Below, piece after piece: positions 5,744 through 25,279 of a DNA stretch of 64,000 nt. The DNA comes from Blasia pusilla. Lineage: Eukaryota. The DNA lies in NCBI GenBank assembly GCA_050084515.1, contig CM114271.1:25048001-25112000 (forward strand), in the 5' to 3' direction. Position 1 is the first letter of the stretch; every line of letters begins with the position of its first letter. Both the position numbers and the translations under genes were made by a program. The notes under the pieces were generated by a model. It had not been told where the DNA came from and did no database searches. It saw only the letters and a list, made by a program, of their open reading frames with translations.

Positions 5744-6052
5744 GAATCTCTTCGAGGTCAAGATGATAAGAGCAATCAAACACTAGCAGGTTAAACTCGA
5801 CCAGGACGAACAAATTTTGGCCCCTCAACTCCATCAATGCTCTTGCTGCATACCATCGAAATGTCAAAATCTCCCAAGAATCAATAGGTGGGGATCTGTA
5901 GAGTCGAATTTGACATCCATTAGAGTCCCAGTCGGTACAGAGTGAGCTAGCTTCAAAACCTCTTCCATCAGGCGTCGACTTGGAAAATTGACCACTCTTT
6001 CTGTGGAAAACTAAGAGCGCGCAACCACAGGAGCAACAATAGCAAGAGAGTA

Positions 6053-9000
6053 CACACACACTCACTCTCTCTCTCGGCCTGGTTGGGTTTAAACCCCAAA
6101 ACTATAAGTCCCAACAGGCCTGGTATGTTGGGACGACATGTTCTAAAGCACTACTCCTGGGTAGCTTATAATGAGCGAACCCTGCGCAAGCAATATAGCA
6201 ATACTCTCTGTCGAGTTGCCCATTGCTGTAGTTGGAACTTGTAGTGAGCTTGCGATGTCGTTCCCTTGGTTGGTAGGTGTGGATTAGTGTCGAGTTGCCC
6301 ATTGCTGTAGTTGGAACTTGTAGTGAGCTTGCGATGTCGTTCCCTTGGTTGGTAGGTGTGGATTAGTGTGTCGTGTAATCCATGTGACTTGTGGCAGTTG
6401 TGCCACAAGTAAGGTGTCATGTGGACTTAGTTGGAGAAATGGAAACCTCTCCTTCTTTTGAAGTTGGATTCACGGGCCCTCCTCTGCAGCTTAATGCCAG
6501 GGCTGTTCACCTTGGCAGGTAGTGATGATATCTGGGGGTAACAAGCGGGCCCTCTTTGGGCACTCTGCCGCTTGGAGGCAGCCCCTCCGCACAAATAGGA
6601 CAGCGAGTTCCTGTCTGGACTCTCGGGCTGAGAGCTTACACATTCTCCCCAGATCCTAAATCAGTTGTTTGCCAAACCTCTACATATAATCAGCGGCCTT
6701 GAGCCCAATATATCTCCGTCCTCCAAAGCTTGTGAGGAGTATCAGTTCACCTATCAAAGGCGCATACCAAAGCCCAGCATCCCCAAGCTGGGTGGGGAAT
6801 ACCGGCATGTTTATGTGAGACGCTCAAAGGCCCCCCGGAGTTCGGACGTGGGCAGAGAGTTCAATCTGGTCTACAGGAGGAGACCACGATTCTACATGAT
6901 CATTTTCGGTGTACGTCCCACAATAGACTTCGTCTCATTTAAGATCATGTGCGCAGCTTTGGGCTTTGAATTCCTGGCTACTGCTGGGGTTACTCGGATG
7001 ATGAATGGCCATCAAGGTATCTTCAAGGCATCTATCAAGGGCAGAGGAGGCCAATACTTGGCTTGCCACAAAAACCAGGTGTCTCAAGATTTGAGACGTG
7101 CCTACAACTGGAGAGCTATGGTAGTCGAGGGTGGTTCCAGCTTGAAGGAAAGGCCCATCCCCACAAAACCGTTGGTGATCTACACACCTAATATCTTTAG
7201 TGTTCTCCAAGGGACCAGCGATGAAGAGCCTGCACATGAAGAGGTTTCATGCCAAAAGCGTGCCCGCCGACCCCCATCCCACTTAGTGACAGGTCTACGT
7301 TTGGGTACCTGGAACTTCTGTGGACTGACCCATGCAATGAAGCAGCTGGAGGTTGCTGAAGTTTTGCTGAAAAATCAAATACATATATGCGGGGGTCAGG
7401 AAACTTGGGAAACCAAGTTAATGGAGATACCCCATGTACCACACTATGCATGGTTTGGAAAGATGTGCAGCACCCATGCGGACAACAACAGAGGTATGAA
7501 GGGTGTCGGGTTCCTCATCAGAGACTTCATGGTGGATAGGTGGGAGATCATCAGCACAGGGCTCGAGTATGAACACAACATATGGGTCAAAGTCCGAGCT
7601 GAGTGCAACTCGCGGGATATGTATATGGGGTGTATTTACATGCCTACAAACAGTGAATCTGCTGCTGTAACACAGGCAGCGTTTGATAGTGTGAAAACTG
7701 ATTTCCTTGGGTTCCAGACAAAGGGGAACATAGTCTTGCTGGGAGACTTCAACAGCTGGGTGGGGCAAGGCACTGATCCCCAAGCGGAGATCGGGATGTT
7801 TGGAGATGTGAGAGTGAATGGCAATGGCACACGGCTGATCACGATGTTGATGGAACTTCAACCGATGGCACTGAATGATAGGCATAAGGTGGGATCCCCA
7901 GCTTGGACTAGGGTCAACTTCAAGGAGAATGAGAGCTCCATTGTGGACTACATAGCTGTGGATGAGGAACTCTACACACGCAGTGGGAAGATCAGAGTGG
8001 ATGCGACAGACAGTGGAAGATCAGATCATTCATTAGCCTTTGCATTTTAGCAAAGGCTAAAATGCTCCACCAAACCAATGAAGAGAGTGATCAAGAAATG
8101 GAGGATAGAGGACTTCCAAGATGAGGGCAACAAGAAGGTATACATTGGGAAGCTGGAAGAAAATCTCTTGGCATTTGACACTTTCATTGAATCTACTGTG
8201 AAGACCTTTGGGTTCACAAGAACAAGTGTGGACATGATGGTGGCATGGTGGGAGCGTGGAGTGACAGATGCCGCCGAGATTACTGTCGGCAGAAAATTGA
8301 TAATATGCGGCAAAGCCGTCAAATGGTGGTCCTTGGAACTCAGGGCAGCCATTGCCAAACGAAGGGAAGCGTATGTCACAAGTGCCAAAGCCAGGGACGA
8401 TGCATCCTTGTGGGCAGAGTATGTGGCCCTACGCAAGGAAACCCGTCTTCTCGTGCGCATGCACAAGAAGAAAATGAACCAAACCACATACTCATCCATC
8501 AATGAGAATTTCACTGAGAACCAGAAAAAGTTCTGGATGGAAGTGCAGAAATTGAGCAAGGCCAGGGACAAAAAAGACGTAAAGGACTTGAAGAGAAAAG
8601 ACAGTGGAATGGTGACCACGGCTAAACAGATCCGACATGTGTTGGAAGGCCATTACAAGGAGTTAGGCAGGAAGCCGGCTCGGACATCCCTTGAAGAGCA
8701 GAACTTCGAGAGGGTGGTGGAGGATTTTGTTAAGATATAACGGGGGAAGGCAGATGATGAGGTTGAGGTGGGCAACCCATATAACGATTGGTTCTCCCTG
8801 GGTGAGGTGGGAGCAGTGATCAAAGAACTTGTGAACCACAAAGCAGGTGGTGGTGATGAGCTTGTCAATGAGCTGTTGAAGCATGGCGATGCTGCTATGG
8901 CTCGTTCTCTAGTGAGTCTCTTCAACCTGGTCTGGCGGGCAGAAGTCATCCCACAAAGATGGCGGGTGGGAGTCATCGTGAACCTCTTCAAGAAGGGTGA

Positions 9001-10904
9001 GCGAGAAGACCCTGGAAACTACAGGGGTATTACATTGCTGAGTGTAGTCGAGAAGCCCCTCTGCCGTATACTCAACAATAGGATCTCTGTGTACCTGGAG
9101 GAGAATTCTCTCATCAAGGAAGGCCAGGCTAGCTTCCGGCAAGCCCGAGGATGCGTGGACCACATCTTCACCTTTAGTCAGATCATCCAGGGTAGGAAAA
9201 AAGAGGGGAAACTCACCTATTGCTTCTTCTTGGACCTCAAGAAGGCATACGACACTGTATGGCGTGACGGGCTTTCTTATAGCTTGTGGAAGGCGGGGCT
9301 GAGAGGGAAAATATGGAGGGTGGTGGAGAAGATGTATTAGAACACAAGGAGTAGAGTTTTGGTGAATGGCCAAAAGAGTGGGACATTCGACATCAAGCAA
9401 GGAGTGGCTCAAGGATGCCCGCTCTCCCCCACTCTCTTCAACATTTTCGTGAATTCCCTATTGGAAGAAACGGAGGATAGTGGACTAGGCATACAGGTGG
9501 GCAACAACTCTGTTGTTGCCCTAATGTTTGCTGATGACTTTGGTGGCCTCGAGGAAGCAGGAGAGAAACTCCAAGAGATGATCTCCCTGACCAAAATCTG
9601 GTGTGACATGTGGGGCATGGAGGCAAATGTACTGAAGTGCGGTGTGATGATTTTCAATGGCAAGGAGGAGGATCAAGACCAATAGTGGTACTGGGGCGAA
9701 CAAGAGATCCCCCGTGTGGCTACATACACCTATCTGGGCATAGAATTCTCGGAAGATTGCATGTGGGATGCACACATTAAGAAGACTACTGAGAAAGGCC
9801 ACAAGAAGGTGAACAGTCTATCCAGATTCCTACACTGCCGGGATATCACATCAGAAGTAAAGCGCTGTGTCATTTTGCATACCATTTGTCCCTCGCTGGA
9901 AGACGGGGCAGCAGTGTGGGATGCCAAAAACAAACAAAGGGATAGGCTTGAAGCTGTGCAGCTGAAGGCATTTCGAGGTATGATGTCAACCTCATCACGA
10001 ACAACCCGAGTTGGTGTGAGATCAGAACTAGGTGTGGAACCCTTGGAGGATAGACGTGATATTGCCAAGTTGAAATGGCGGAGGCAGCTGGAGACAATGG
10101 ACTCCCATCGCTATCCTAAAGAGGTGATGGGGAAAACCTGGACCCAAAGAAGACCCGTAAAGCAGGCCAAATCTTGGACGAAAAAGGTTCAAGAGATTGT
10201 GCAAGCTTCCAAGCTCCCAGCAAGGCCTGAACTGTGGGAGCAAGATGAGAAAGCATTCGTGGATACCATAACCAAAGCAGTGGGCAAACACTCACAGTAG
10301 AACAGCACGGAGGAAGCCATGAAAATGTCTGACCTCTCTCTTTTGACGGTATATCCCGAGAGGGCAGAACTGAAGAAGTATTTGCGGGGAACCCCTTGCT
10401 TGGGAACCCGGCTCAAGTTCAAGTTCAGGACGGGGGCAATCCCCTTGAACCATAAGAAAAGCAGGATGGGGAGACAACTAAACTCTTGCGCCTTGTGTGA
10501 CGATGGGGACGAAACCTCTAGTCATTACTTGGTCTCTTGCGCAAAATTCACACCACACAGTGCAAGAGCATATGCTGATATTGCTAAGCTGGTAGCACCT
10601 GAATTGTTCAACACATTTAGTAGGCTTGATTCATTGCCCAAAGCTGCTGCACTGGTAAGTAATGTCTATTGGGGATCCCAATAAGGTAAAGTAGATGGTG
10701 TGGTGAAGAGTTTCTTGGTTCACACTTGGAAGCTCCGCACAAACACGTTGTTTGGTCAGCACTCACACTATTTTAGAGTGTCTCCCTCCTCTCATATGGT
10801 ACCTTCTTCACTTGCTTCTCTCTCTACACCTATCCTAGTCTCAAGCATCGTCCAACCAGGGCGCGGGGTCTATGGTCGCAAGGCTACGACAGGCACTATT
10901 TAAT
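6053..10904 (+). mobile_element. Non-LTR retrotransposon (RTE/RTEX-like LINE): APE endonuclease, RT and C-terminal CCHC
   Basis: One frame, 6665-10903: GTWN, QETW, GDFN, IVDYI and SDH (APE); KKG...NYRGITLL, DLKKAYD, GVAQGCPLSP and FADD (RT); CALC...H...C. Six in-frame stops. Candidate TSD GAGTA at 6048-6052 and 10905-10909. Confidence 0.9.
6209..6366 (+). repeat. Tandem duplication (2 x 79 bp) in the LINE 5' region
   Basis: TGTCGAGTTGCCCATTGCTG...GTGTGGATTAG occurs twice head-to-tail. Confidence 0.9.
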
Positions 10905-13734
10905 GAGTATAGTCTCTGCAAAAATGGCGAAAAGCCCATTAGTGATGAATGATGGAGGAGAGTAGCATTGGTTGTCAGATGGATAGCTCTCAATCAGTTG
11001 TAACTCCCACTCGGGAGTTGCGGATTCTTCTTTGAATTTCAATTGCATTGGTGCTCAATTTTTTCCCAACAAAACGTGCATGTACCTGGATTCTGTGTAT
11101 TCTTGCAAGATTCTATGGATTCTTGCGAGTTGATGTGTCTGGTGCAGTACATCAGAAGCTAACACAAGCTCCTGGAGGTTTGCAGGAGAGGATCCTAGGT
11201 TTCACTCTAGGAGTTTCTTGTGGAATCGGTGCTTTTATTTTTGAGCAAAAGAACCTCTGGAGATTGGCCAGGGAGCTAGCGAATGTGTACTCAAGAGGAA
11301 AACTGTCTCATCCCCAAGTTTATGTGAGTTTCTCACTGTATTCGTTCCCATTTTTGTTGACTAGTTCCATTTTTTAGGTGATCCACTTCAACCTTAAGCA
11401 AATGCTCATATACAGAATTGTGTTTTTGGGCTTGTGCATGTGAGTATTGTTTGAATCTAATGACACATGGAACCCCAAAAGCTAAAACGAAGTCCAACTT
11501 TAATTCTAGGGTTCGTTGGACATTCAATAGGCTTCAAAGAGTCATGAGCAATCTGACCAACGCCTCTATGATCCCATAGCATTGAAGACGTTGTCTTGTT
11601 TGAAGAATTTAGGGTGTTCAATAAACTCATCACTTGTTTTAATGTCAAAGCTTCTAGAAAAAAATTGCATCATCATAACTGATGGGGATAGGGGGTTGGA
11701 CAATTGAACATGATCCATAATAAAGTCTGAACATCACGCTTCTGATGGGACGATTAGTAATATGGTGAAGGGTGTTTTCATAAGTTGGTTGCATTTGTGA
11801 GGGTACAGAGCTAACGACATAATGTGTGGATGACTTTGGAAGTTAGTGAAGAAACTTTCAGCATACCAGAGCCTAGATAAATCACCACTAAATGAAGGAA
11901 TTTCATTTAATACTTCATGGAATTTCACACTCCCTACAGCATTAGTCTTCGTAAAATTTGAGACCAAAGATAACATTAATGAATTTTTGGAGTTTTCTCA
12001 TGATTACTGAGATGTAATCACTGTTTTTGTGAGAGCCTTGTATCATTTGCTTCTTGGAAATATGTGTAAATTTATTCTTGTGTGATGTCAAATTCAACAG
12101 GTCCCTGCGCCTTTCTTTGGACGCCAGGCACGATAGAAGATGATCCATGCATGGAATATCGGACTTGACAAGATGCTAGGCTCCATTATATCTCGACTGA
12201 GTGAGAGGGGGTGGTAAATTTACTTCAAACCTGACCTTACATACATATGCAAACCATCTACAAGGGTTTATGGATGTCAAGCTGTGGGGAGAAGCTTTCA
12301 GATCCGTGTTGCACCGGACGATTAGCCTGAGGTAAAATTACTAGCGTTCATCCCCGATTATACTACTGTTTGGTGCATACTTCTGATGGAAACTTAGGAT
12401 CCCAAGGAATTGATTTTGGATGGGTGCTTCCATTTAATATGTCCTCAATTGAGAATGCAGGGGTTGAATAATCATTTGAGTCTTTATAGAATATCCAACA
12501 GTTGTTAGCCCTATTTCCCTATGGGAAGAACGCCAAATTTTGTACTGAATATTCCAACTTTGGTGGGTACTGTTGCTAGCACATAGCTTTCCAGCTCTTG
12601 AAGGTCTTATGCAATATAATCTAGGGTTTTTTTTTTTTGGCATGCATTGGATGAGTCCAACAAATTCAGTTTATTTCTGTTTAACTATATTTATCTGCTC
12701 TTCCTCCATTCATTCCTCCCCTTTATCCTCTGAAGGGTTGTGGTTTGTGGAAAGGTCTAGCAACTTTTCCTTGAGCTCTTATAGGCCAATTTCTGGTCTT
12801 GCAGAAACGTTGGTGAAAAAGGGAGCAGTGCATTGATGTTTCGTTTTCCACATCTTGGTCCCCCACCCCATTTCCATCCACGCGTCAGTCTAGCTAAGTC
12901 CTTTCTGAAAGTGGCTCCGTAGCCATCAAGCCCTTGTAGGTAATTTCATATCAGTATCATTCATTCTTGCTACTACAATTGTCATCTTGTCAAACAGGTG
13001 GGCACTACCAGACTTTTACAACTGAGATGTTTACGCATCTAGAAAATATTGAAGTGTTTGCCAAGTTGGAGTTCTCTTCTCATAAAGTAACTTCTAGAAA
13101 GGAGGAACTAGTCGATCACTCAATATTATTTCAATCATTCTCTATTTAAATAGTAAACTCAATATTTTATCTTTTCTGTCAAAGCATCTTGTAAGCTTGT
13201 GTTTGCACCCCATGCCCTATCCTACTCAATGGTGTCATGATAGACTCTAAATTTTGAAATGGAGATGTTGGCTCTCAATTTTGAAGTGGAGATGTTGTAA
13301 TATTTTTAAATCAAATTGACCAATATGATTCACTCATATTTTATGACATAATCATCATGAGTCATTTCAGAAAAGACAAAGTCCTCCATACAACTCATTC
13401 ATATTTTATGATTCGAGAACATAATCATTCACATAGATCAAAAAGATTAATGACTCAAATGATCACAATGATTAACTTTTAGGTGACCTATACGATTGAA
13501 TATATGACTCATGTATCACGAATCAATCATTTTAACAAATTTTGGTAACCGATATGATTCGTTACGTGACTCAATCATGTCTCATGACTCAATCACTTAA
13601 ACCATACAAGTGTTTCATATGATTAAGAAATGCATCATCGCCAAGTCATTTAGACCATTTGAGTGATGGATATGATTTAGTCATAGATTATGACAATCAT
13701 TTTGACCATTTGAATGATGAATATGACTTAATTA

Positions 13735-16700
13735 TGTGGAAAATTGTTAAACAAGTGTAATTGCATGAAAGCAACTCTCATACACACATACCACCATCGA
13801 GAACAAAATTTGTAATGAGAGAATGAGTGAAAGCTGGTCCTTTTTTCAACTATATAGGATATGTACAAACAACCCTAACCCTATCCTTAACCATAGTCTC
13901 GAGTTAGACTAATTGTGATTAACTAACCCTAATTATGATAATCGTGCTTAATTGACTAACCAAGATTAAACTTCCCTACTTTGTGTGAATACCAAATGTA
14001 GTAGTTCAGGTGTCTCATGAGCTTAATTATAACTCAAATTTCAATACTCCCCCTCAAGCTCATATCGATATCTCTAACGTCTAAATCCTTTCTAAACATC
14101 TCAAACTTATCTCTAGACAATGCCTTTGTAAAGATGTCAACAATTTGTTGATCTGTACCTATATACACAAGATCGATTTCTCCTCCAAATACTTTCTCTC
14201 TGATAAAATGATAGTGCACCTCAACATCCTTTATACGAGCATGAAACACAGGGTTATTAGCAAGCTTGATGTTACTAATATTGTCTGCATATATTACACT
14301 AAGTCTTAAGTTACTAACACCAATCTTAGCAAGTACTTGATGAAGCCACTTCGCCTCACATGCTGCATTTGTTGCTCCTTTGTACTCAGCCTCTGTTGAA
14401 GATAAAGCAAATGTAGGTTGCATCTTTGAAGCCCAACTTATAGCTGGGCTTCCCAAAGTAAATGAATAACCAGATGTGGAGTGTCAATCAGACACGCTTC
14501 CTGCGCAATCAGCATCCGTGAATCCCTGTAATTGAAAACTCGAAGAAGGTTCAAATTGAAGCTCAAATTCAATAGAGAATTTCACATAGCGCACAATCCT
14601 CCTCACGACATCAAGGTCAGGTTTTCGAGGTGCTTGCATAAACTGACTCACTACGCCAATAGCATAGCTCAAATCTGGTTTGGTTATAGTTAGATAGATC
14701 AAACTTCCAACCATGCGCCTGTACATATTAGAAACTGCAAGCAGTTCTCCTTCATCCACTCTTAGCTTCACGCTTTGGTCCAACAATGTAGAGATTGGCT
14801 TACAAGTCGTCATACCATATTTTGAAAGCATATGAAGAGCATATTGTCGTTGTAGTAACCACATGCTCTCTCCAACCTTGATAAACTCAATACTAAGGAA
14901 GTACTTGAGTTCTCCCAAATCCTTCATATCAAATTCTGCTTGTAACTTAAGCTTGACTTGTACCATTTCTTCAGTACTCCCAGTAATCAAGAGATTATCA
15001 ACATACAACATAATGAGAACTGTGTGATCTTGTCCTCTCAAGACATATAACGAGGAGTCAGAATAACATACCCAAACCCAACTCTTGTAGGACGTATGTA
15101 ATCTTGCCATACCAAGCTCTTGGAGCTTGTTTGAGCGCGTAAAGAGCTTTCTTCAACTTGCATACGCGAAATGGAAACTTGGGATGCTCGTATCCATGTG
15201 GTTGAGTCATATATACCTCCTCATATAGATTTCCATTCAAGAAGGCATTCTTGACATCCATGTGATGTAATCTCCACTTCTTACTTACTACAACTGCAAC
15301 CACTATTCTCGTAGTCGCCATCTTTGCAACATGGCTAAATGTTTCCTCATAATCGATACCATATTATTGTGCATAGCCCTTAGCCACCAATCTCGCTTTG
15401 TATATGTTAATTGTACCATCTTGATTGCGCTTGATTTTGTAAACCCATTTGCAACCAATAGCTTCCTTACCATAAGGTATATCAACCAGCTCCCATGTTT
15501 GTTGATGTCTTAATACAACAAGCTCTTCCTCCATAGCTTCAATCCATTCGACTTTACTCGCAGCTTCTTCAAAATAACTCGGCTCTTGCTCTTGAAGGGT
15601 AGTCATCATATATGCATGATGTGTCATTTATGAATCTATGAACTGGATGTGTAACTCTACTTGATCTACGAAGTTGTTATTCAGAGGTAGATGCCTCTAA
15701 CACTTGACTCGAGCTCTGACTAGTGTCAACAGACTGAATATGTACTCTTCCCGTCCATGGACTCACAGATTTAACCGATGAATCTAGGACCTCTCCTAAT
15801 CTTGCACTAGTACTTGGGGAAGTTGAAGACAATGCTTGTTGGTTTATAGTCATATTCTCCCCTCTACAGACAAGTTTAGAGGTGAAATGGGCTCAGATGG
15901 AGCAAACCATGACTTTGGCTCATCAAAAACAACATCTCGACTAATAATAAGCTGCCTAGAGGATGGAATGTAGCACTTATACCCCTTAGTTCCATCAACA
16001 TAGCCAATAAAGATACATCTTTTAGACTTGGGGTCTCATTTTTGATATCTCTTAGAAGGATCATGAGCATAAAAAATACAGCCAAATACTTTCAAGAAGG
16101 AAAAATCAAGTTTACTTCTTATGAAGACTTCGGATGGAGTTTTATCATGAACTCATGTTGTTGGAGTTTGGTTGATTAAGAAAACTGCATATGCTACAGC
16201 CTCTGCCCAATACACCTTAGGCATGTTCTTCTCATTCAACATAGTTTGTGCCGCTTCAAAAATATACCGATTCTTCCTCTCAGCCACTCCATTTTTTTGT
16301 GGAGTGTAACGGCAAGTCACTTGACGTTGGATGCCATTCTAACATAAATAGTCATCAAACTCTGTTGAAAGATACTCTCCTCTTCCATCACAATGCAATT
16401 TCAGAATATGTTGTCCAACCTGCTTCTCTACTAGAACTCTGAATGTTTGGAACACTGAGAATACCTCTGACCTGGTTTTTAGAAAGTATACCCATATATA
16501 CGTAGAGAAGTCATCAATAAATGAAACAAAGTACAGGAAACCACTAAGGCTATGTTGTGATGTTGTCCACACATCACTGTGGATCAACTCCAATATCTTG
16601 GATGCTCTTCAACCTTGCTTTGGAAAATGAAATCTAGTTTGTTTTCCAAATTGGCAAGCATGACATACCTCTAACGTAGCAAGACTCGCTAATTTAGGGA

Positions 16701-18916
16701 GTCCTATTACTATATTAGATGATGAAAGACTCTGTAATCTTTGAAGATTCATATGTCCGATTCTTTTATGCCACACATTTAGATCTGTGACTTGTTGGCC
16801 GATTTGACCATACATTGGTGTTTGAATCTCTGGCATAGAAACATCTAATTTGAACATTTTTCCAGATCTAGTTCCTTTGGCTATCTTAGTCTGGTCATCC
16901 ATTGTTTCAATGAAATAACCATATGCGTTAAACTTCACTTGATAACCTTGTTCTACTATCTGTCCTACAGAGATCAGATTTCTTGCAACGGTAGGAACAT
17001 AAAGAACATTTCCAAGAGCACAAACACCATCTGATGCTATTGGAACTTTACCGGTATGCGTGATATGATGTTGAGTGTTATCTCTTATGAGCACAATTGC
17101 AGGATCTTTCACCGGCTCCAAACTACTGAACCATTTAGCTTGTGAGGTCATGTGATTTGATGCACCAAAGTGAATGTACCAATATGTTGTCGAGTTATTC
17201 TTGACCATTGCTCCCATATGATGAGTCATGACCAAGAGATGCTCCGTTTATGAATGTTTTTGTTCTTGGTACCGCTCTTGGTGTTGTTGCTCCACATAGT
17301 TTTGTTGTTGTAAGGCTCCTGTTCTCATATCTACCTTCTTCTTGAAACAAAACTTTGCATAGTGACCCTTTATCCCACAGTAATTGCAAGATCTAGGGAC
17401 CCTCTGTTGCTGACCTCCATCCCAACGGTTTCCACCATCACCACCTTGTGATTGTCTCTAGTACTAGTTCGTAGTTGATTGAGTGACGTTATATTGAGTG
17501 CCTCTTCCTCCATATGCTTGATATCCACCACGACCACAAAAGTTTCTGCCATGACCCCTGCCTTGATTGGATACTTCTCTCTCATAGATAGAGGTCTCTA
17601 AGGACTTGTAATCTTTTGGAAGGCCTTGAAGAGTGAATAAAATCAGATCATCATCTTCTAATGTCATTCCAATGTTATTCAACTGATTAACAATATGTTT
17701 GATACTCAAAATATAATCATTGATGCTCTGCGATTCTTTCTTCACTTCGTTCAATTGTTGTTTCAATTGAAGCTTTCTGGCCTTTGTAGATGTCTGGAAC
17801 ATCTTTTCCAATGCATCCCAGGTCTCCTTCGGAGTATCAACATCTTGGATGTGATCTATCATTGGCGAACTGATCGTTATTGAAATGTAGTGGATTACTT
17901 GCCTTGGCGCGTTTGTTCCAAGCGCGAACATTCAAGTTTGTTGAGTCACTTTCTGGTTTGGCCTGATCACCTGTGACAAGCTCCCATAGTTCTTGACCCA
18001 TGAGAAATTTTTTCATGCGAAACTTCCAGACATTGAAATTCTGCTTGTCTAGCTTCTCGCCTATGATTGTTGTTGAGGAATACTCCATGATAAACGATTT
18101 CACTCACAAAAACGTAATTTCAGGCTTTCTACTACTCCAATTGAAGCATAGACCACTCTTACACAGAAATTGATCTGAAATTTACCAAAATTGATCAACT
18201 GTATAAAAGAACTAGTCGAAATTGGCATGTAGAGAGCAAACTGCAGAACTTTTCTTCACTAATTGCACTTTCTTACACTAAAATTGTTACTACATGAGCT
18301 CAGAGTGTCAGAATTGAGCAATTTTGGATGCGTTGGAAAGCTCTTGACAAGCTCTACAAGATTGAAAGAACCATTTTTCAGTGTCATTCTAGACGAAGCG
18401 CACACAGACGGCTGAATTGACCGGGAAAGCCCTAAAAAAAAACTCCAAAGTTTTATCACCGTCAAAGCTGCACCTGAAATCTACATCCACTGAGCTCTGA
18501 ATATAATTTTCTTTTCCCAAACTGAAAGTGTGCCTTCTCTTGCATCTCTTCTCCCTTCAAACACCAAGAATTTCAAGTGATGTTCTCCTCCCGCTCTGAT
18601 AGCATATGGAAAACTATTAAACAAACATAACTGGTGGAAAACGGTTCTCACACACACATACCACTATGGAGAACGAAATTTGCAATGAGAGAATGAGAGG
18701 AGGCTGATCCTCTTCTCAATTATATAGGATATGTACAAGCAACCCTAACCCTACCCTTAACCATAGTCTGGAGTTAGACTAACTGTGATTAACTAACCCT
18801 AATTAAGATAATAATGTTTAACTGACTAACCAAGATTAAGCTTCCCTACTCTGTGTGAGTACCAAATGTAGTAGTTCAGGTGTTTCATGAGCTTGATTGT
18901 CACTCAATCTTCAATA
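13735..18916 (-). mobile_element. Full-length but degenerate Ty1/Copia LTR retrotransposon
   Basis: 312-bp LTRs at 13735-14046 and 18605-18916. tRNA-iMet-type PBS TGCTATCAGAGC (18593-18604, minus); PPT GAGGGGGAG next to 14047. Minus-strand order gag (CNYC..GH...C knuckle), PR (WYIHFGASNHM), IN (IHSDVW), RT (YVDN), RH (SSTEAEY). Degenerate TSD AATTA/AGTCA. Confidence 0.93.
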
Positions 18917-21900
18917 AGTCATAGATCATAACTAAGTCATTTTGCCCAATCCAAATGATGAATATAGCTAAGTCATAATTTATCATTGCCATGTGTCAAC
19001 ACATCATTTGTTTTCTTCAAGTCATTGCCATGTCACGTATTGACATGGCAATCGGAATATATGACTACATTCTATCATACGTTGATTGATGACGTGTCAC
19101 TCATTGTTAATAATGACTTGTCAAAATAATGACTAGATTTATCCCAAAATGACTCTAGTCATGGCATGGTATATAACTAGGTTTTTATGACTCCATGAGT
19201 CATCAGTCATTGTCAGTCATTTATGGATATGTATGACTAACATAAGTCATATGAGCCTGTCATAAAAACCAAGATTTGTTCTAGTGCATCTCGACGAATG
19301 GCCGAAGGTAAATATGGCTCTCAGCCATAAAGTAGCAAATACGGTGAAAAAAACGCTAAGGATGCTTTCCTGCTGAATCTGTATCCCATCGCCAACCACG
19401 GAAACTAGAGGTCCCAATCTCCTAGGTGACCTCTCTGCAAGCCATACTTGCGTAAACCCCTCTTCACCGTCTGCACAACTCTCTCCACTAATCCATCCGC
19501 CTCGGGATGATCTCGCGAAGTTGTGCGGTGATCGATCAACGCCTGATCATACATGGCTTGGAACTCATCGCAAAACTCGGTAACTTGGTCTGTCAACACC
19601 TCAGCCGGTGCGCTATAATGACTCAACACTCTGTCAAGGAAGGCATAAGCTACTCCCTCACTCTCTTTGTCAGGAAATGCAACCAACTTGATCCACTTTG
19701 AGAAGTGCTCGACCATCACCAACACATAACAACTCTGACGCTCTGTCAAAGGCAAAGATCCTGAAAAATCCAAACTCCATCTATACCCTAAGCCCATGAT
19801 TGGTAATGGATGCAACTGTGGAGTCAGAGCATTGAACGATGCTCGGATCCAATCACAAACCATGCACCAGACAACATATTGCTGAACGTCAGCTTGTATG
19901 CCTCGCCACCAATACTAAATCTGGAGCAAGTTGTATGTCCGTTGCATCCCAAAGTGTCCCAACTCCTTGTGGGCATGCTGCACTAGTCATGCTCTCTGCA
20001 AAGGATGCAGCACTACGCGTACTCTACCATCCTCCCAAACCCTCAAAACATGTGTCCCCTCCCAGCGGAACTGTCTGGCCCACTGAAGGATCCGATCCCG
20101 CTCTCTAACATCCACGGTGCTCGCAACGCTGCCAGTACGAAGGTACTCCAAGACTACTCCATCATCAAGAATATCTCGGCCACCTGTCGTCTCCTCACTA
20201 GCCTCGGGATCTAAGGACTCTCCACTAGACCTCGCCATCGAAGTCTCCACACTCTGGCTGTCCATAGACAACATGCCTAAATAGGTTGACGCGTGCCATC
20301 CTGGCATTAACTCCTCGTCACTCTCTCCATGCCATCGAGCTCCACTTGCATCTCACTGACTCGAGCATGGGTTACAACTCAACCCATTTGCATCCTGGTT
20401 TAGCGTCGCAGGTCTATGTACCACCTAAAAATCATACTCCTGCAACAATAGAGCCCATCTTGCAAGCTTCCCTGTAAGCTTGTCGGACTCCATCAACCAC
20501 TTCAGTGGTGATGATCATTGATGATGGTAAAGGGGTTGCCGAATAAGTAACACCTGAAATGCACGACAGCCCACACCACAGCCAAGCACTCACCCTCATA
20601 CGAGCTGTTCTTTTCCTCTACAGCGTTGTTCGAGCGGCTAGCATAACCCACCACAAACTCTCTACCCTCATCATCATGCAGGGTGAGCACCGCTCCAAGC
20701 CCCAACATGCTCCAATCTGTGTGCAACTGGAAAGGACGCCCCCTGATCGGTCTCTTCAAGATGGGCGCGGACGTCAAAGTATCCTTGAGCAACTAAAATG
20801 CTCGCTCCTGCTCATCCCCCTAGTGACACTCGTGATCCACCTTGGTCAAAAGGTCAGCGGCTTTGCAATCGAACTGAATCCCTTAAAGTATCGCCGATAG
20901 AAGTTCGCCAATCCCATGAATGCGCAGACACGGCTCACATGTGTAGGTTGTGGAATGCGTGAGATAGCATGTACCTTCATCTGCTTAACACCAAGGCCCC
21001 CTGGGTATATGGTATGACCCAAGTACTAGATGTCGCTCATGCTCCTCTAGATGTCGCTCATGCTCCTCTAGATGTCGCTCATGCTCCTCAACCTTCGCGC
21101 TAAAGAGTATGATGTCATCAATATAACACCTAGCAAAATCCAGACCTTCCAAGATCATATCCATGACCCTCTGAAACTCAACCGGGGCGTTCTTTAATCC
21201 AGATGGTAAGAACCGCCACTGGTACAAACAATCCTTCTTGTGAGGATCGATGCCCCAAAATGCCGTCTTTTGCTTGTCCTCCAATCTGATAGGCAGTTGA
21301 TCGTATCCGGCTCGCAAATCCAATGAACTGAAGATCTTTGCGTTACCAATCGTATCAAAGATCTCCTCAGGGGTGGGCATGGCATATCTATCAGACTTCG
21401 TCTGCTGAGTGATAGGTCAGTAATCCCCACATATCCGCCTATCCGTCCAGTTGCCATGCACATCCTTCTTGGCGGGCATGACAGTGGCAGATGCATACTC
21501 CCCATGTGACATCTCCACTAGTCCTACTCCGACCAAGTCATGGCTCCTACTCTGAATCAGAGCCCTCTCCATATCACTGTACCTGTAGGATCGTCGGAAG
21601 ATCGGCGTATCACTCGATAAATCAATGCGGATCCCCGGTCCCTTCAGCGTACCCAAATCCTCCATGCTAAACGCAAGGCAACTCCTATAACTCTTGAGGA
21701 ACTAATGTATCCAGCGCCGCTCTCCTCTTGTCAACTTAGGGCCCATATCTGACTCCCAAGTCTCCATCGTGACTACGATAGGACTCTCCGGCGTGGGTAT
21801 CGGTGGTTGCTATGGTGCAACCCCATCTCAAACAACAACACTCGGCCGCTCTCCTATAGCCAACTGCAAACTTTGATCTCCTCCACGTGCAGTGCCCGGA

Positions 21901-22119
21901 ACCATGCTCGATGTTGTGGCTATCATCTCTTGGCGTACCTGCAAAACATCCCAAGAAGTCCAAGGGTGTCTCTCCCAATCTCCTCTAGTGTGTAGATCTC
22001 CTCGGGTCTGCCCCCAGCCACTGCCTCCACTGTCTCGGTAGGCATGGGGCTCACCAACGCAACCGTTTTGATCTGTCGCAATCTTATACGATGCTGCTCA
22101 GCCTCTCTCAAGCTCATGA

Positions 22120-23060
22120 TCCATGTGAAGCAGTTAAGGTCCATCGCCTAACCCAAGACATGGCGTCATGATGCCTCTAACACTGACGGTAATCTCGTCA
22201 CTCCTGTGGGAAATCCCATCGCTCGCTCTCTCTCATCGGCGTTGGGCTCCATCCACAGCTTAACCCGGTCATCCCAAACCAAGCCACGACCGGCCTCCTT
22301 GTATGCATAGGAAGCGGGAAAACTCACAAACGTGGGCAAGGTTGCCCACGGACTACCTACCCTGTTGACCACAGTCAACGGTGGTCGATCATCGTGCCTC
22401 ACTGCCTATGATCAACGACCTGGATCCAGAATGGAATCCACTAACAAATGGGAGGGGCGCTCCACTCTCGCATACGCCCTCCGTAACACTGCATGGGGCA
22501 CCAAGTTGGTCCACCATAGACGCTGGCGATTTGCTCTAGAACCTACACTCACCATATCCAAGAACACTGTTGGGCCGATCCAAGCAGGAACCTAATGAGC
22601 ACTCGTCACCACCCATGACCTGGAGTCTCCTAAGATTGGCACATTCTCCAGAATGTAGGCTGGAGAATGAGACTGATGCTCTTGCAACTGCCGTAAGATC
22701 CTCAACATCTCCCAAAACAACATGGACCGAGTGTCAGCCAAACCGCTGCCTCGTCCAACACTTGATTGGCCCTGACATGGCCAACCGGAAATGACCAAAT
22801 CAATGGTCCCTACGTGCTCCAAGTCTTGCGTCCCCAGCAACGAAATATCTCTCGGTAGGGAACTCTGGTACCCTTGTACCACAGAAGCAGACAATAAGTC
22901 CGGAAAACGTAGGCATAATTGCGCCACATGTTGTAGTGAGATGCGTCTCACAACATCATCACACTCCATATACAAGTTCTCCTGCACTCGCACTTTTGCC
23001 TGCAAAACAGCAGCTAACCCGGTGCTAATCCCTCCAAAGAGATCTAACACTCGAATACCC
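22120..23060 (-). pseudogene. C5-cytosine DNA methyltransferase domain within Gypsy pol
   Basis: Motif I IRVLDLFGGIS, motif IV IDLVISGWPCQG (catalytic PC), motif VI YILENVP, motif IX ERERAMGFP, motif X-like LG*AMDLN. Interrupted by stops. Confidence 0.9.
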
Positions 23061-24541
23061 TCCTCCGGGATACACCACACAATGGGTGTGGTATCCAATG
23101 GTGTCATTATAGCACTCCCTACTACCTCGGGTTCCTTAGACCCGTCATGCTCTGGTGCAAATGCCTCGCTCCATGCGGTTTGCACGTGCTCATCTGCCAA
23201 TCGTCGAAGCTGCTCAATCGAGCCCACATCGGCACCTCTCCTCGACAGAATGATGCGACTACCATAACACTCCTCTTCATAGAAATGTCAGGAAGGGGTG
23301 TATCCTCTGGATAGACATGTCCCTCAATCAAATCACTAGGCCAACTGATGGCATTGCTAAATGCTGCTAAGGTTGCCACCTCTCCTAGCCGTCGCTCGAT
23401 CACTGCACATGTGAATCAAACGGGTAATGAGCTAAGACGCCCATCACCTGACTGCCATTCTGGTGTGTAAGACGCTGACTCCTCCCCGTAATCTAGGGAA
23501 AACCCCATCGGGTATAACACTGCTCCACCAACCAAGACGTCCTAGGACTCTGCATTAGTCACTATCGCCTTGGCTCGCACCACGGACTCATCTGTAGGAT
23601 GTCCCAAGCGAATCCTCACCACGACCTCCTGTCGGGTGATATACCGTGTGGTACTTGCTCCACGTAAGGATGTCTGTATCTGAAATGAACAACGCTCCAC
23701 ATTGGCTCTCGTCAAGCCCAATCCTGTGAATGACGCTTTCCCCAACATCAGGGGTTGCGCTCCTAAATCCAACAAGACACGCTGCGGACTAAAAGCTCTA
23801 CCTCCGGAACTCACCAACTGGAAGACCTCTCCTCGGTCATCCAACATCACAACACCAGAAGAAGCCATGGCACTCTCTATCACGGGTCTAGCGGGCATCT
23901 CCGCCATCCTAGCATCCGTAGCCTACCATGAATCTCACGTGGACGGCTCGAGCATCCGCTCCAAGGGAAGTTCCATCACCTCCTCTGCAATCATCTCTGA
24001 ATGTGATGCAGGAACCCCAACTCCGCGCTCACATTGTGAAGCGGCCAGCTGAAAAGCCTCGGCGGGCGTACCTCCCAACATCATAACATTGGAAGCAGAA
24101 AATAAAGGCGTGCGGTACACAACGGTGGTCGCCCCCAACAATATGCTCGACACATGATCCTCCTGAGCATCAACAATAGAAGTCGTCGTACTCGCTTGTC
24201 CCATCGTCCTCCGTGGTTGCACACCAACAACATTACCAACTCTCCAGCAACTTTGATGAGGATCCATCAATGGGATCCTCATTGCTTCGGACAATGTGAA
24301 AGATTGAGAAAGCCTAGTCTATTTTCAAGCTTCCCCTCGCTGTGGATCCAACTTTGCGGCTGATCCACACGTCACAACTGCGGCGGCCTCCATTTGGGCG
24401 ACCCCGTACATCCAACCAGGATCCTCTATATCTCTAGCTGCTCCATATGATGTCGATGCCACGAATCTGGCATCGGATAACCTCAATGCCATAGCGGCAA
24501 TCTGCTCCTATAGCTGCTGTATCTGGGGGCTGGTATTCTGG

Positions 24542-24720
24542 CAGGAGAGAGGAGAGGAAGAGAGGAGAGTCTCTCTTCAAAAAAAAGGGCCAAATCCGCC
24601 TCCTCTCTTCAAAACTTTTTGACATATTTGAAATTTTTGTTTGCTTTCAAATTCATGAAATCTTTAGAAGAGAGTATTTAGTGGTCCACATTTGGCCCTA
24701 AAAAAACCTCCTCTTTCCTG
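24542..24720. repeat. Small foldback/MITE-like sequence at the junction where Gypsy gag is interrupted
   Basis: CAGGAGAGAGGAG...AGGGCCAAAT pairs with ATTTGGCCCT...CTCCTCTTTCCTG. No clean TSD. Confidence 0.45.
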
Positions 24721-25279
24721 GGGGCGAGAAAAAAGGAGACATCATAAGACCACTACAAACATTTTTCCATCACTCTCCATGTGAGCCTAAGTTTCTTAAC
24801 ATTCCCCGTCTCGGTCAACAAAAATCAGTGCCCTTGGTATTTTTGTTGGAGGACCACCCGGATGCCAACCTCTCTTTTTGCAGGGGTTGCCTGCATCATG
24901 GCCTCCCCTAAATTGCCCCATAACCAACTTTTTTTTGGTTATGAATGGTGTCTGCTCAAGACCAACTTTGTGAAATGTGAACACATCAGATGCTAAGGCT
25001 GAGAAACCGAGAAGTTGCACCCCTCCCAACCCATAAGAAAGCTCACCATAAGAAAGGAAAGATTTTTAGAAGTGATTTTCTTCCACCCTGCACCCACGAC
25101 GATCTAACAGGTTGGGAATCCAAAATGGCAATCCGACAGGTAGTAGGAATCCTGTACATCTTAGACAAGAAAAGAAGCCTACAACTGGTTTGACGAATGA
25201 AGGGAACGGCAAAAGTCAAGAAGCTCGCCACAATGCGTCGGTTGGTCTCACCGGGATAGAGTCCGATCACTCAAGCAGT

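What the first reader, a model, noticed from the sequence alone, without database searches (positions are those of the whole stretch)
20985..23907. Gypsy retrotransposon encoding its own C5-cytosine methyltransferase between protease and RT
Seen: C5-MTase motifs (LDLFGG, GWPCQ, ENV, ERAMGFP) sit inside pol. A second copy at 742-2183 has the same DNMT-to-RT junction, so this is a family trait rather than a chance insertion. Known: DNMT-bearing retrotransposons have been reported in dinoflagellates and the charophyte Klebsormidium; I am not aware that they are well described in land plants. Inference: the enzyme may methylate the cDNA or new insertions. Both copies here are decayed.
Basis: partly seen in the sequence, partly recalled or inferred. 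Interest (0 to 1): 0.8.

Follow-up and report, generated by a model that had tools for sequence, protein, structure and literature searches.

The report
Retrotransposon carrying its own DNA methyltransferase
This is a broken copy of a jumping gene that carries its own DNA-methylating enzyme, a kind so far described only in a green alga, and close relatives turn out to be common in liverworts and peat mosses and are still transcribed in this organism.

Summary
On the minus strand lies a decayed Ty3/Gypsy-type element ordered gag, protease, DNMT3-like C5-methyltransferase, RT, RNase H, integrase. The methyltransferase region is one frame with 5 in-frame stops. A second fragment (812-2190, +) has the same DNMT-to-RT junction.

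It is a family trait. Relatives at 55-66% identity with the same order occur in Marchantia, Calypogeia, Sphagnum and Closterium, and on 80 metagenome loci. One locus reads gag to integrase in one frame with only 2 stops. The fold is DNMT3-like. The domain evolved under purifying selection (omega 0.11-0.31).

- A conserved TAG-CAA-CC stop separates gag-protease-DNMT from RT-RNase H-integrase. The enzyme therefore belongs to the upstream reading frame.
- Copy 1 continues at 3706-2181, beyond a 15.6-kb block nested in its integrase.
- Relatives have the split repeats A-coding-B-A-B reported for KnitGypsy-Dnmt3 of Klebsormidium.

Reads of the same species label show a very abundant family transcribed in sense. 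Verdict: a new member of a known kind. The enzyme's function is untested.

The parts
24526..25124 (-). 5' non-coding part of copy 1; upstream limit uncertain
   Evidence: Family DNA reads still cover it at 260-710 per orientation, against 14-17 in 19000-19200. Many reads part from this copy at 24525 (tables 2 and 7). No repeat is shared with the 3' end.
23935..24564 (-). C-terminal part of gag; the N-terminal part is missing or unrecognisable
   Evidence: Marchantia P0163 residues 387-822 align to 24564..23224. Homology to P0188 starts only at residue 475.
23419..23922 (-). Aspartic-protease-like region (DLG in place of DSG)
   Evidence: Aligns to the Asp_protease_2 stretch of P0181 and P0179. 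No Pfam match of its own.
21926..23287 (-). DNMT3-like C5 cytosine methyltransferase domain, one frame, 5 in-frame stops
   Evidence: PF00145 E 1.9e-11. Read through with X at the stops. Best solved relatives are DNMT3A, 3C and 3B. 57% identity to Marchantia P0163 over 411 columns.
21804..21812 (-). Conserved stop TAG followed by CAA CCA, between DNMT and RT, in the RT frame
   Evidence: Exact site. Aligned with the same site in L001, copy 2 and the metagenome loci. Fits UAG + CARYYA (PMC5382211).
20988..21803 (-). Reverse transcriptase, with two extra stops and a 35-nt stretch that many relatives lack
   Evidence: RVT_1 4.3e-20. 60% identity to Marchantia P0173. Stops at 21704-21702 and 21419-21417. 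The joint 21027-21063 appears in DNA reads.
20505..20816 (-). RNase H
   Evidence: RT_RNaseH_2 4.8e-26. 72% identity to P0173.
19287..20352 (-). Integrase: zinc-binding part and first part of the catalytic core, cut at 19287
   Evidence: rve 4.2e-12. Integrase residues 1 to about 241 of eight relatives align to 20019..19294. Family reads run on unlike at 19286 (table 7).
3707..19286 (.). 15.6-kb block of other repeats nested inside the integrase gene of copy 1; not part of the element
   Evidence: LINE 6632-10300(+) with an endonuclease and RVT_1. Copia-type element 13734-18903(-) with 300-nt LTRs 86% alike.
3139..3706 (-). Continuation of copy 1: integrase C-terminal part with a PHD finger
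   Evidence: Six relatives align from about residue 245 onward to 3706..3139, exactly where 19294 leaves off. PHD PF00628 2.2e-10. The reads' loose-end sequence at 19286 matches 3675-3704 in 28 of 30 letters.
2181..2952 (-). 3' end of copy 1: direct repeat B1 (2952-2823), middle piece (2822-2312), B2 (2311-2181)
   Evidence: 131 nt, 90.8% alike. Both B pieces match the B repeats of L007, L046, L059 and L068 at 77-80% over about 75 nt.
812..2190 (+). Copy 2: fragment from the DNMT (before motif IV) to the first 68 residues of RT, with its own TAG CAA CCA at 1917-1925
330..413 (-). 84-nt scrap of a third copy (end of the protease region)
   Evidence: 82% to 23429-23520 in direct orientation. 57-68% identity to residues of seven relatives.

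Best explanation
WHAT IT IS (shown). Copy 1 is a dead, nested copy of a Ty3/Gypsy-type retrotransposon of the Gypsy-DNMT3 kind. Its parts run on the minus strand: gag, protease, a DNMT3-like cytosine-C5 methyltransferase, a conserved TAG stop, RT, RNase H, integrase and a PHD finger. It ends in the split repeats B-A-B. It belongs to a family shared with liverworts, Sphagnum and Closterium. The same Gypsy RT lineage also holds green-algal elements in which the DNMT sits between RNase H and integrase.

HOW IT MOST LIKELY WORKS (inferred).
- The family RNA is translated mainly into Gag-protease-DNMT.
- A minority of ribosomes read through the UAG-CAA-CC stop and add RT-RNase H-integrase-PHD.
- The methyltransferase would thus be made in step with Gag and could enter the virus-like particle with it, or be released by the protease.
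- It would then methylate the element's own new cDNA, or the fresh insertion, probably at CG as DNMT3 enzymes do.
- The copy would enter the genome already carrying a host-like mark.

My odds: identity and family membership 0.9; readthrough design 0.55; self-methylation of cDNA or new insertions 0.35.
For: IDENTITY. Copy 1 is collinear with Marchantia and Sphagnum proteins from gag to integrase.

DNMT3 CLASS.
- A profile of 12 family sequences hits DNMT3A at 1.3e-13, DNMT3C at 1.2e-12 and DNMT3B at 3e-12. The next hits are a DRM at 2e-6 and M.HaeIII at 2.8e-5.
- A model of the L001 domain (mean pLDDT 90.4) matches only DNMT3A, 3B and 3C chains in all rows printed, down to rank 48 (best E 7.6e-19, TM 0.77-0.81 by target length).
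- The motif order is not rearranged.

ENZYME KEPT.
- FGG, Q of PCQ and ENV are invariant, and P and C of PCQ are at least 90% conserved, in 12 sequences.
- Omega for the DNMT is 0.31 between the two window copies (276 codons). It is 0.11 for window against L007 and 0.18-0.21 for L001 against four loci. RT, RNase H and integrase give 0.05-0.16 where computable.

CONSERVED STOP.
- 49 of the 53 metagenome loci that cover the site have TAG (37) or TAA (12) there.
- Both window copies and L001 have TAG CAA CCA.
- In L001 the stop is in frame with both sides.
- About 25 gag-protease-DNMT proteins of Marchantia, Calypogeia and unnamed sources end at positions equivalent to 1385-1447.
- UAG + CARYYA is the type I leaky-stop signal of plant viruses (PMC5382211, passages).

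ACTIVE FAMILY. DNA depth is 800-2030 per orientation, against 14-17 in the next bin. In 3 of 3 RNA runs depth is 40-230 on one strand against 0.2-20 on the other.

PRECEDENT. Retrotransposon DNMTs of Symbiodinium methylate CG de novo in yeast, and self-methylation of cDNA was proposed there (PMC5890265, passages).
Against: - No activity has been shown for any member of this family. The Klebsormidium Gypsy DNMT gave no methylation in yeast, which the authors call inconclusive (PMC5890265).
- Several relatives of other sub-clades carry gag to integrase in one frame with no stop (P0102, P0211, P0238, P0245). The stop is therefore not universal.
- The main metagenome family has CAA CCC, which is 5 of the 6 letters of the motif.
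- Most loci are decayed copies, probably from few hosts, so the 49 of 53 are not independent events.
- Synonymous sites are saturated in most between-lineage pairs. My Nei-Gojobori script aligned codons through protein similarity, which lowers dN.
- Within the young metagenome group omega is 0.54-0.60, as for RT (0.47-0.63). That fits decay after insertion and says nothing either way.
- No host DNMT3, DRM or Klebsormidium DNMT sequence could be fetched. Placement inside the DNMT3 clade rests on likeness, not on a rooted tree.
- RNA reads are nearly all under 95% alike (5-12 per run at 99% or more). They show that the family is transcribed, not this copy, and not that intact copies exist.
Confidence: 0.75

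Rival explanations
1. The methyltransferase is a private accident of this copy: a captured host gene piece or a nested insertion, not part of the element's design.
For: Both window copies are broken, and copy 1 is out of frame at both ends of the domain.
Against: The same order and junctions occur in the second window copy and in 24 named bryophyte proteins. Of the 81 metagenome loci and window copies with more than 150 DNMT codons, 49 also hold more than 100 RT codons downstream. L001 is in one frame. DNA depth over the domain is about 0.7 of that over RT to integrase.
Confidence: 0.02
2. The domain is kept but does not methylate the element's own DNA. It could act as a DNA- or chromatin-binding module that steers integration together with the PHD finger, as a decoy for the host's de novo machinery, or as an RNA methyltransferase.
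For: The Klebsormidium domain showed no activity in yeast (PMC5890265). The lineage carries a PHD finger on the integrase, which suggests chromatin reading.
Against: The catalytic motifs (PC, ENV, FGG) are conserved across the family. That is not expected of a mere binding module. The closest solved relatives are DNA enzymes, not the RNA enzyme DNMT2.
Confidence: 0.2
3. The TAG between DNMT and RT is not a programmed leaky stop. Either it is inherited damage in a few decayed sub-families, or RT-RNase H-integrase is made by another route such as a separate RNA, reinitiation or splicing.
For: Single-frame relatives without the stop exist. The main metagenome family fits only 5 of the 6 motif letters. 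An RNA-only joint (20609-21642) shows that family RNAs are processed in unexpected ways.
Against: The stop and CAA CC are identical in three lineages that are only about 66-75% alike in the adjoining DNA and unalignable just upstream. Independent gene models in Marchantia, Calypogeia and unnamed assemblies end there. Damage would not hit the same codon repeatedly.
Confidence: 0.3

Closest known systems
KnitGypsy-Dnmt3 of Klebsormidium nitens (de Mendoza et al. 2018, PMC5890265; passages and figure legends read)
   Same: A Gypsy-type element with a DNMT3-related, non-rearranged methyltransferase in its polyprotein. Purifying selection acts on the domain. The repeats are arranged as in DIRS elements (A-coding-B-A-B) despite a Gypsy domain set. 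I found that arrangement in 3 of 4 relatives examined in full, and its B-A-B end in the window. A K. nitens retrotransposon protein (P0328: RT-RNase H-integrase-PHD) falls inside the type A group of the RT tree (SH-aLRT 92).
   Different: The hosts of the named relatives here are liverworts, Sphagnum and Closterium, not Klebsormidium. The position of the domain in K. nitens is shown only in a figure that is not held, so sameness of order is untested. The conserved stop after the DNMT, the PHD finger and transcription in a further host are not mentioned in the passages I read. No K. nitens DNMT sequence was retrieved.
Green-algal Gypsy elements ordered RT-RNase H-DNMT-integrase-PHD (Scenedesmus, Haematococcus, Pleodorina, Tetrabaena and many unnamed)
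   Same: The same RT lineage (a clade of 61 rows, SH-aLRT 100, against the arthropod-led outgroup of 4 rows). They share the integrase with a PHD finger and have a related DNMT (33-43% identity).
   Different: The methyltransferase lies between RNase H and integrase. In the DNMT tree the two placements are separated by a branch with SH-aLRT 97 (unrooted).
SymbioDIRS-Dnmt3 and SymbioLINE-Dnmt of Symbiodinium (PMC5890265)
   Same: Retrotransposons that encode a cytosine methyltransferase. For the DIRS type, de novo CG methylation was shown in yeast.
   Different: They are other element classes: tyrosine recombinase or LINE. The window element has a DDE integrase.
Animal DNMT3A/3B/3C catalytic domains
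   Same: Best sequence and fold matches, with the same motif order.
   Different: 20-22% identity only. Pfam found no PWWP or ADD domain in the L001 polyprotein. The domain is embedded in a retrotransposon polyprotein.
Type I leaky stop of tobamoviruses (UAG CARYYA; PMC5382211) and the gag-UAG-pol design of gammaretroviruses (recalled, no call)
   Same: A UAG followed by CAA CCA, with the polymerase frame continuing in phase.
   Different: The site lies after protease and DNMT rather than after gag. Readthrough has not been measured. The main metagenome family has CAA CCC.

Membership tests
Ty3/Gypsy LTR retrotransposon | Domain order RT, RNase H, then DDE integrase | tested here: met
   Pfam RVT_1, RT_RNaseH_2 and rve in that order on the minus strand. 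The same order in L001.
Ty3/Gypsy LTR retrotransposon | gag with zinc knuckle and an aspartic protease upstream of RT | tested here: inconclusive
   L001 has zf-CCHC (5.4e-7) and a DSG motif. In the window only the gag C-terminal part and a protease-like stretch with DLG remain, with no Pfam match.
Ty3/Gypsy LTR retrotransposon | Two identical terminal direct repeats (LTRs) bounding the element | tested here: not met
   Relatives have A1-coding-B1-A2-B2. A is about 340 nt and B about 114 nt, and flanks are unique only outside A1 and B2. The window shows B1-middle-B2 at the 3' end and no matching 5' repeat.
Gypsy-DNMT3 kind (KnitGypsy-Dnmt3) | DNMT3-related, non-rearranged methyltransferase domain within the element's polyprotein | tested here: met
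Gypsy-DNMT3 kind (KnitGypsy-Dnmt3) | DIRS-like arrangement of repeats combined with Gypsy domains (Fig. 4c legend) | tested here: met
   L030, L046 and L061 show it in full. L068 lacks a detectable B1. The window has the B-A-B end only.
Gypsy-DNMT3 kind (KnitGypsy-Dnmt3) | [quoted passage not shown] | tested here: met
   Omega is 0.11-0.21 between lineages and 0.31 between the two window copies. Saturation and method caveats apply.
Gypsy-DNMT3 kind (KnitGypsy-Dnmt3) | DNMT domain groups with the K. nitens element's domain, at the same position in the polyprotein | not testable with these tools
   No K. nitens DNMT sequence came back from three protein searches. The figure and supplements are not held. 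Only the RT of K. nitens P0328 could be placed.
DNMT3 family of cytosine-C5 methyltransferases | Motifs I, IV, VI, VIII, IX, X in the standard order, with closest likeness to DNMT3 in sequence and fold | tested here: met
DNMT3 family of cytosine-C5 methyltransferases | Branches inside the DNMT3 clade in a rooted tree with DNMT1, DNMT2, DNMT5, DRM and bacterial enzymes | not tested
   No reference sequences of those classes could be obtained. The tree holds retrotransposon domains only.
DNMT3 family of cytosine-C5 methyltransferases | N-terminal chromatin readers (PWWP, ADD) of animal DNMT3A and 3B | tested here: not met
   Pfam on the 2163-residue L001 read-through lists none. A PHD finger sits on the integrase instead.
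DIRS retrotransposons | Tyrosine recombinase instead of a DDE integrase | tested here: not met
   rve and Integrase_H2C2 were found. No phage-integrase domain was found.
Type I programmed stop-codon readthrough | UAG followed by CARYYA, with the downstream frame open and conserved | tested here: met
   Window copies 1 and 2 and L001 have TAG CAA CCA. RT follows in phase. 35 loci have TAG CAA CCC, which is 5 of 6 letters.
Type I programmed stop-codon readthrough | Measured readthrough product | not testable with these tools
   Needs a reporter assay or proteomics.

The most novel reading that the evidence does not exclude
An old streptophyte-wide Gypsy lineage (Closterium, liverworts, Sphagnum, this host, probably Klebsormidium) makes a DNMT3-type enzyme as the last domain of Gag-protease, in step with Gag. 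It makes RT-RNase H-integrase-PHD only by reading through a UAG-CAA-CC stop. The enzyme would be packed into the particle and mark the cDNA before integration. In the chlorophyte branch of the same RT lineage the domain sits at another place in the polyprotein. The family is still transcribed and very abundant in at least one host, and it is present in the genetic model Marchantia.
Probability: 0.3. Interest if true: 0.7.

Novelty: new member of a known kind. Interest (0 to 1): 0.5.

Why it matters
Retrotransposons that carry the enzyme normally used to silence them are a paradox. The held papers describe them in dinoflagellates and one charophyte alga, and more recently in Cymbomonas and Euglena elements, and their purpose is unknown. 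This window and its relatives show the Gypsy-DNMT3 kind in bryophytes, including Marchantia polymorpha, where genes can be knocked out and methylomes read. That would make the open question directly testable: does the element methylate its own cDNA, and to what end? The conserved stop after the enzyme suggests that it is dosed like Gag rather than like the polymerase, which is a concrete prediction. Annotation also gains: in public bryophyte records these frames appear as 'hypothetical protein' or as 'DNA (cytosine-5-)-methyltransferase'. They can inflate counts of host methyltransferase genes.

Tried and rejected
- Own genome: none is held for this window, so family counts come from reads and from other hosts.
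- LTR search in the window: no pair flanks copy 1.
- 'Empty site' reading: 48452-48567 resembles 19286-19171 (73.5%) next to an arm that matches 25741-26403. I first took 19287-25740 for an insertion into that repeat. I rejected this once the integrase was seen to continue at 3706 and the reads' loose end matched 3675-3704. The 116-nt likeness remains unexplained.
- Run index: no RNA holder listed. The RNA evidence comes only from laying raw reads.
- Promoter and terminator scan of 24400-25800: it uses bacterial consensus patterns, which are not meaningful here.
- Protein atlas: only generic PF00145 clusters (viruses, Streptophyta). No lead.
- Earlier notes of this scan by place and by sequence: nothing.
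- CpG observed/expected: 0.70 for copy 1, 0.44 for the neighbouring Copia and LINE, 0.28 for L001. No consistent signal, so it is not used.
- Names of long unnamed hits: two look-ups gave Closterium, Scenedesmus and Calypogeia only. Klebsormidium DNMT sequences were not found.
- RNA structure downstream of the stop was not examined.
- The trees are 'quick' searches with SH-aLRT support only. For the RT tree I kept 18 of the unnamed type B rows and 10 of the unclassified rows, and removed 7 arthropod rows.
- Supplements are closed. Supplementary Figs 13-14 of PMC5890265 and the supplementary tables of PMC12344493 may already list bryophyte elements or show the domain order in K. nitens.

Full report
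OBSERVATION

- Pfam finds a C-5 cytosine methylase (PF00145, E 1.9e-11) on 22592-23287. It also finds reverse transcriptase (RVT_1, 4.3e-20) on 20985-21416, RNase H (4.8e-26) on 20502-20792 and a DDE integrase core (rve, 4.2e-12) on 19405-19914.
- The methyltransferase region 23287->21926 is a single frame interrupted by 5 stop codons.
- Between protease and integrase the copy changes frame five times.
- The protease call rests on homology to relatives whose equivalent stretch Pfam names Asp_protease_2, not on a Pfam match of the window itself (0 families).
- The second copy is confirmed: 833-2183(+) against 22948-21546(-), 76.7% over 1405 nt. It runs from before motif IV into the first 68 residues of RT. 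Its catalytic motifs are altered.
- An 84-nt scrap of a third copy lies at 330-413.

TRUE EXTENT OF COPY 1

- Marchantia and Sphagnum proteins align collinearly from 24564 (gag) to 19432 (integrase).
- The integrase stops abruptly at 19287. Eight relatives align residues 1 to about 241 of their integrase to 20019..19294. Six of them continue from about residue 245, through a PHD finger, at 3706..3139 on the same strand (PHD PF00628 2.2e-10).
- Family reads that run off this copy at 19286 carry a sequence that matches 3675-3704 in 28 of 30 letters.
- So 3707-19286 is material nested inside the integrase gene. It includes a LINE (6632-10300) and a Copia-type element with 300-nt LTRs (13734-18903).
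- Downstream of the PHD finger lies a 131-nt direct repeat (2952-2823 and 2311-2181, 90.8%) around a 511-nt middle piece.
- No matching repeat is found at the 5' side, where many family reads part from this copy at 24525.
- An earlier idea, that 19287-25740 was inserted into the large inverted repeat of the window, is dropped.

A FAMILY TRAIT

Searches and named hosts:
- A full HMMER search with the 231-residue frame gave 1620 proteins at E up to 1e-3 and 302 at E up to 1e-10.
- A word-indexed search among longer proteins gave 30 hits at 33-60% identity. Of these, 20 are from Marchantia polymorpha, 2 from Calypogeia fissa, 2 from Sphagnum and 6 are unnamed.
- Pfam and local BLAST show protease-DNMT-RT-RNase H in Marchantia P0173 and protease-DNMT in P0179 and P0181.

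Two placements of the domain:
- Among 225 fetched proteins with a domain match, 19 have the DNMT ahead of RT (type A). 35 have it between RNase H and integrase (type B, which includes Scenedesmus).
- Further searches added type A proteins from Closterium. They also added complete single frames of 2188-2374 residues from unnamed assemblies (P0102, P0211, P0238, P0245), and type B proteins from Haematococcus, Pleodorina and Tetrabaena.

Metagenome loci:
- A scan of metagenome contigs found 175 stretches that encode relatives, and 80 loci were kept.
- Most loci are decayed. L001:321-6809 reads 2163 codons in one frame with only two TAG codons. It carries zf-CCHC, a DSG protease motif, PF00145, RVT_1, RNase H and the integrase zinc and core domains in that order.

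KIND OF METHYLTRANSFERASE

- The broken window domain already finds DNMT3A best among solved structures (4e-7), then DNMT3C and 3B, DRM2 (1.5e-4) and M.HhaI (6e-3).
- A profile of 12 family sequences gives DNMT3A 1.3e-13, DNMT3C 1.2e-12 and DNMT3B 3e-12. A tobacco-type DRM scores 2e-6 and M.HaeIII 2.8e-5.
- An AlphaFold model of the L001 domain with a 41-row alignment has mean pLDDT 90.4. In Foldseek against the PDB every row printed, down to rank 48, is a DNMT3A, 3B or 3C chain (best E 7.6e-19; TM 0.77-0.81 by target length; 20-22% identity).
- The motif order is the ordinary one, not the rearranged order of DRM.
- FGG, ENV and the Q of PCQ are invariant, and P and C are at least 90% conserved, in 12 sequences.
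- I could not bring host DNMT3, DRM or Klebsormidium sequences into the session. 'DNMT3-like' therefore rests on likeness, not on a rooted tree.

SELECTION

I mapped codons of every locus onto the L001 read-through by tblastn and computed Nei-Gojobori values pairwise, skipping stops.
- The two window copies give dN 0.187, dS 0.612 and omega 0.31 over 276 DNMT codons. The linker after the domain gives 0.73.
- Window against L007 gives omega 0.11 for the DNMT (340 codons, dS 2.7, near saturation). RT gives 0.11, RNase H 0.10 and integrase 0.07.
- L001 against four loci gives 0.18-0.21 for the DNMT, 0.24-0.39 for the protease and 0.05-0.08 for the integrase. RT and RNase H are saturated.
- Within the young metagenome group all domains give about 0.3-0.8 (DNMT 0.54-0.60, RT 0.47-0.63), as expected once copies decay.
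- The domain was thus constrained about as much as the protease while the lineages diverged. Caveats: saturation, protein-guided codon alignment and my own implementation.

A CONSERVED STOP AFTER THE ENZYME

- In L001 one of the two stops lies between DNMT and RT, in phase with both, in the context TAG CAA CCA.
- A DNA alignment shows the same TAG CAA CC in both window copies and in the other loci. The sequence just upstream cannot be aligned between lineages.
- The exact sites are 21812-21810 in copy 1, in the RT frame, and 1917-1919 in copy 2.
- Of the 53 metagenome loci that cover the site, 37 have TAG, 12 TAA and 4 a sense codon. 35 read TAG CAA CCC.
- About 25 gag-protease-DNMT proteins end at positions equivalent to 1385-1447 of the L001 read-through. 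They include five from Marchantia and one from Calypogeia.
- UAG followed by CARYYA is the type I leaky-stop signal of plant viruses (PMC5382211, passages). CAA CCA fits it fully and CAA CCC in 5 of 6 letters.
- I infer that the family's main product is Gag-protease-DNMT and that RT-RNase H-integrase is added by readthrough. This is not shown. Sub-clades with one uninterrupted frame exist.

TERMINAL REPEATS

- In long loci a repeat of about 340 nt (A) lies upstream of gag and again downstream of the integrase, 86-94% alike.
- The second A is flanked on both sides by a repeat of about 114 nt (B). Unique flanks begin only before the first A and after the second B.
- L030, L046 and L061 show this in full, with element lengths of 9.2-11.0 kb. 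L068 lacks a detectable first B.
- The window's two 131-nt repeats match these B repeats at 77-80% over about 75 nt.
- This A-coding-B-A-B layout is what the legend of Fig. 4c of PMC5890265 reports for KnitGypsy-Dnmt3: repeats as in DIRS, domains as in Gypsy. It is the strongest sign that the bryophyte family and the Klebsormidium element are the same kind.

TREES (QUICK SEARCHES, SH-aLRT ONLY)

- In a tree of 51 retrotransposon DNMT domains the window groups with L001, Calypogeia, Sphagnum and Marchantia (8 rows, support 100). That group is sister to an unnamed gag-protease-DNMT group (96).
- All type A domains sit on one side of a branch (97), away from type B. Domains from Closterium Copia-type proteins and from proteins that also carry a Dam domain sit on the type A side as well. 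The tree is unrooted and six rows have long branches.
- In a tree of 65 RT-RNase H rows the green-lineage elements form one clade (support 100) against an outgroup of 4 rows (one labelled arthropod, three unlabelled).
- In that tree type B forms a clade (98). The window groups with L001 and Marchantia (100). A Klebsormidium nitens retrotransposon protein (P0328) falls within a type A group (92). Rows dropped are listed under Tried and rejected.

READS (CALL 49; AT LEAST 80% ALIKE; RUNS OF THE SAME CODED SPECIES LABEL AS THE BEST DNA HOLDERS)

DNA:
- In the DNA run 109,422 reads were laid. Only 137 are at least 99% alike and 76,242 are under 90%.
- Depth per orientation is 800-2030 over 19402-24426, against 14-17 in 19000-19200.
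- Depth is 826-1165 over the DNMT bins and 1091-2028 over RT to integrase. Most family DNA that matches RT to integrase therefore also carries the DNMT.
- Without a genome size this is not a copy number, and the neighbouring bin need not be single-copy.
- At four of the five places where this copy changes frame, a quarter to three fifths of the family's DNA reads differ from it in length by one letter. At the fifth, many reads lack a 35-nt stretch that this copy has. The frame breaks are therefore private damage.

RNA:
- In 3 of 3 RNA runs depth is 40-230 with the first mate on the + strand, against 0.2-20 on the other. This holds across gag to integrase, including the DNMT bins (40-92).
- In the usual stranded libraries that orientation means RNA of the minus strand, the element's sense strand.
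- Only 5-12 RNA reads per run are at least 99% alike. The transcripts therefore come from relatives, not demonstrably from this copy.

LITERATURE

- PMC5890265 (passages and legends) describes DNMT-bearing retrotransposons in Symbiodinium and Klebsormidium. The words Marchantia, Physcomitrella and liverwort do not occur in its main text.
- PMC12344493 (passages) and the preprint 10.64898/2026.05.21.726589 (passages) refer to 'streptophytes' by citing that paper.
- PMC10952607 and PMC11982613 (passages) do not mention such elements.
- Eight searches found no description in land plants. Subscription journals and all supplements were out of reach.

VERDICT

It is a new member of a known kind, Gypsy-DNMT3, and relatives are widespread in bryophytes. 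Points not found in the passages I read are the conserved stop that puts the enzyme in the Gag-protease frame, the PHD-bearing integrase, the two alternative positions of the enzyme within one RT lineage, and transcription in this host. What the enzyme does is still unknown. Self-methylation of cDNA or of new insertions is the best-supported guess, at about one in three.

Noticed in passing
window 20609-21642 (-): An RNA-only joint skips 1032 nt (RT core and most of RNase H) and keeps the reading frame. It is seen in 12, 23 and 9 reads of the three RNA runs and in 0 DNA reads at a depth of about 2000. The ends are not GT..AG, and 3 letters fit on either side of the joint. It could be a spliced family RNA, a rare expressed deletion variant or a library artefact.
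   Followed up: partly
window 35841-41842 (-), 33293-35590, 25741-29500 and 45142-48451: A complete 18S-5.8S-28S rDNA unit (Rfam) lies beside GC-rich tandem repeats of about 160 nt. It sits between two inverted arms of about 3.5 kb that are 88-97% alike. The arms hold a 368-codon frame (27335-28441) with no Pfam match.
   Followed up: partly
window 3139-3462 (-), and relatives P0014, P0235, P0328: The integrase of this Gypsy lineage ends in a PHD finger (PF00628), in both the bryophyte-type and the algal-type elements and in a Klebsormidium protein. It may be a chromatin reader for targeting, comparable to the chromodomain of chromoviruses.
   Followed up: no
proteins P0076, P0099 (Closterium) and P0055, P0067, P0103 (unnamed): Related DNMT domains also sit in Copia-type polyproteins (RVT_2) of Closterium. 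They also sit in proteins that carry a Dam adenine methyltransferase domain as well. In the DNMT tree both fall on the type A side, which suggests that the module moves between element classes.
   Followed up: partly
window 19000-25000: At sites where this copy differs from the family's reads, it has A or T where the reads have G or C at 318 places, against 219 the other way. Transitions make up 537 of 807 differing places (table 1, DNA run). This is the pattern expected from deamination of methylated cytosines in a silenced copy.
   Followed up: no
window 6632-10300 (+) and 13734-18903 (-): A LINE (endonuclease and RVT_1) and a Copia-type element (gag, integrase, RVT_2; LTRs 13734-14033 and 18604-18903, 86% alike) lie inside the block that splits copy 1.
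   Followed up: partly
window 19171-19286 and 48452-48567: A 116-nt likeness (73.5%, inverted) lies at the edge of the nested block and next to the end of one inverted arm. It may be a short repeat family. It is unexplained.
   Followed up: no
window 54657-55178 (-): A 173-codon frame with DUF4218 (1.2e-23), a domain of unknown function.
   Followed up: no
Sphagnum fallax protein P0184: This public gene model joins gag, protease, DNMT, the start of RT and the integrase, skipping the conserved stop and most of RT and RNase H. It looks like an annotation built over a decayed element.
   Followed up: no
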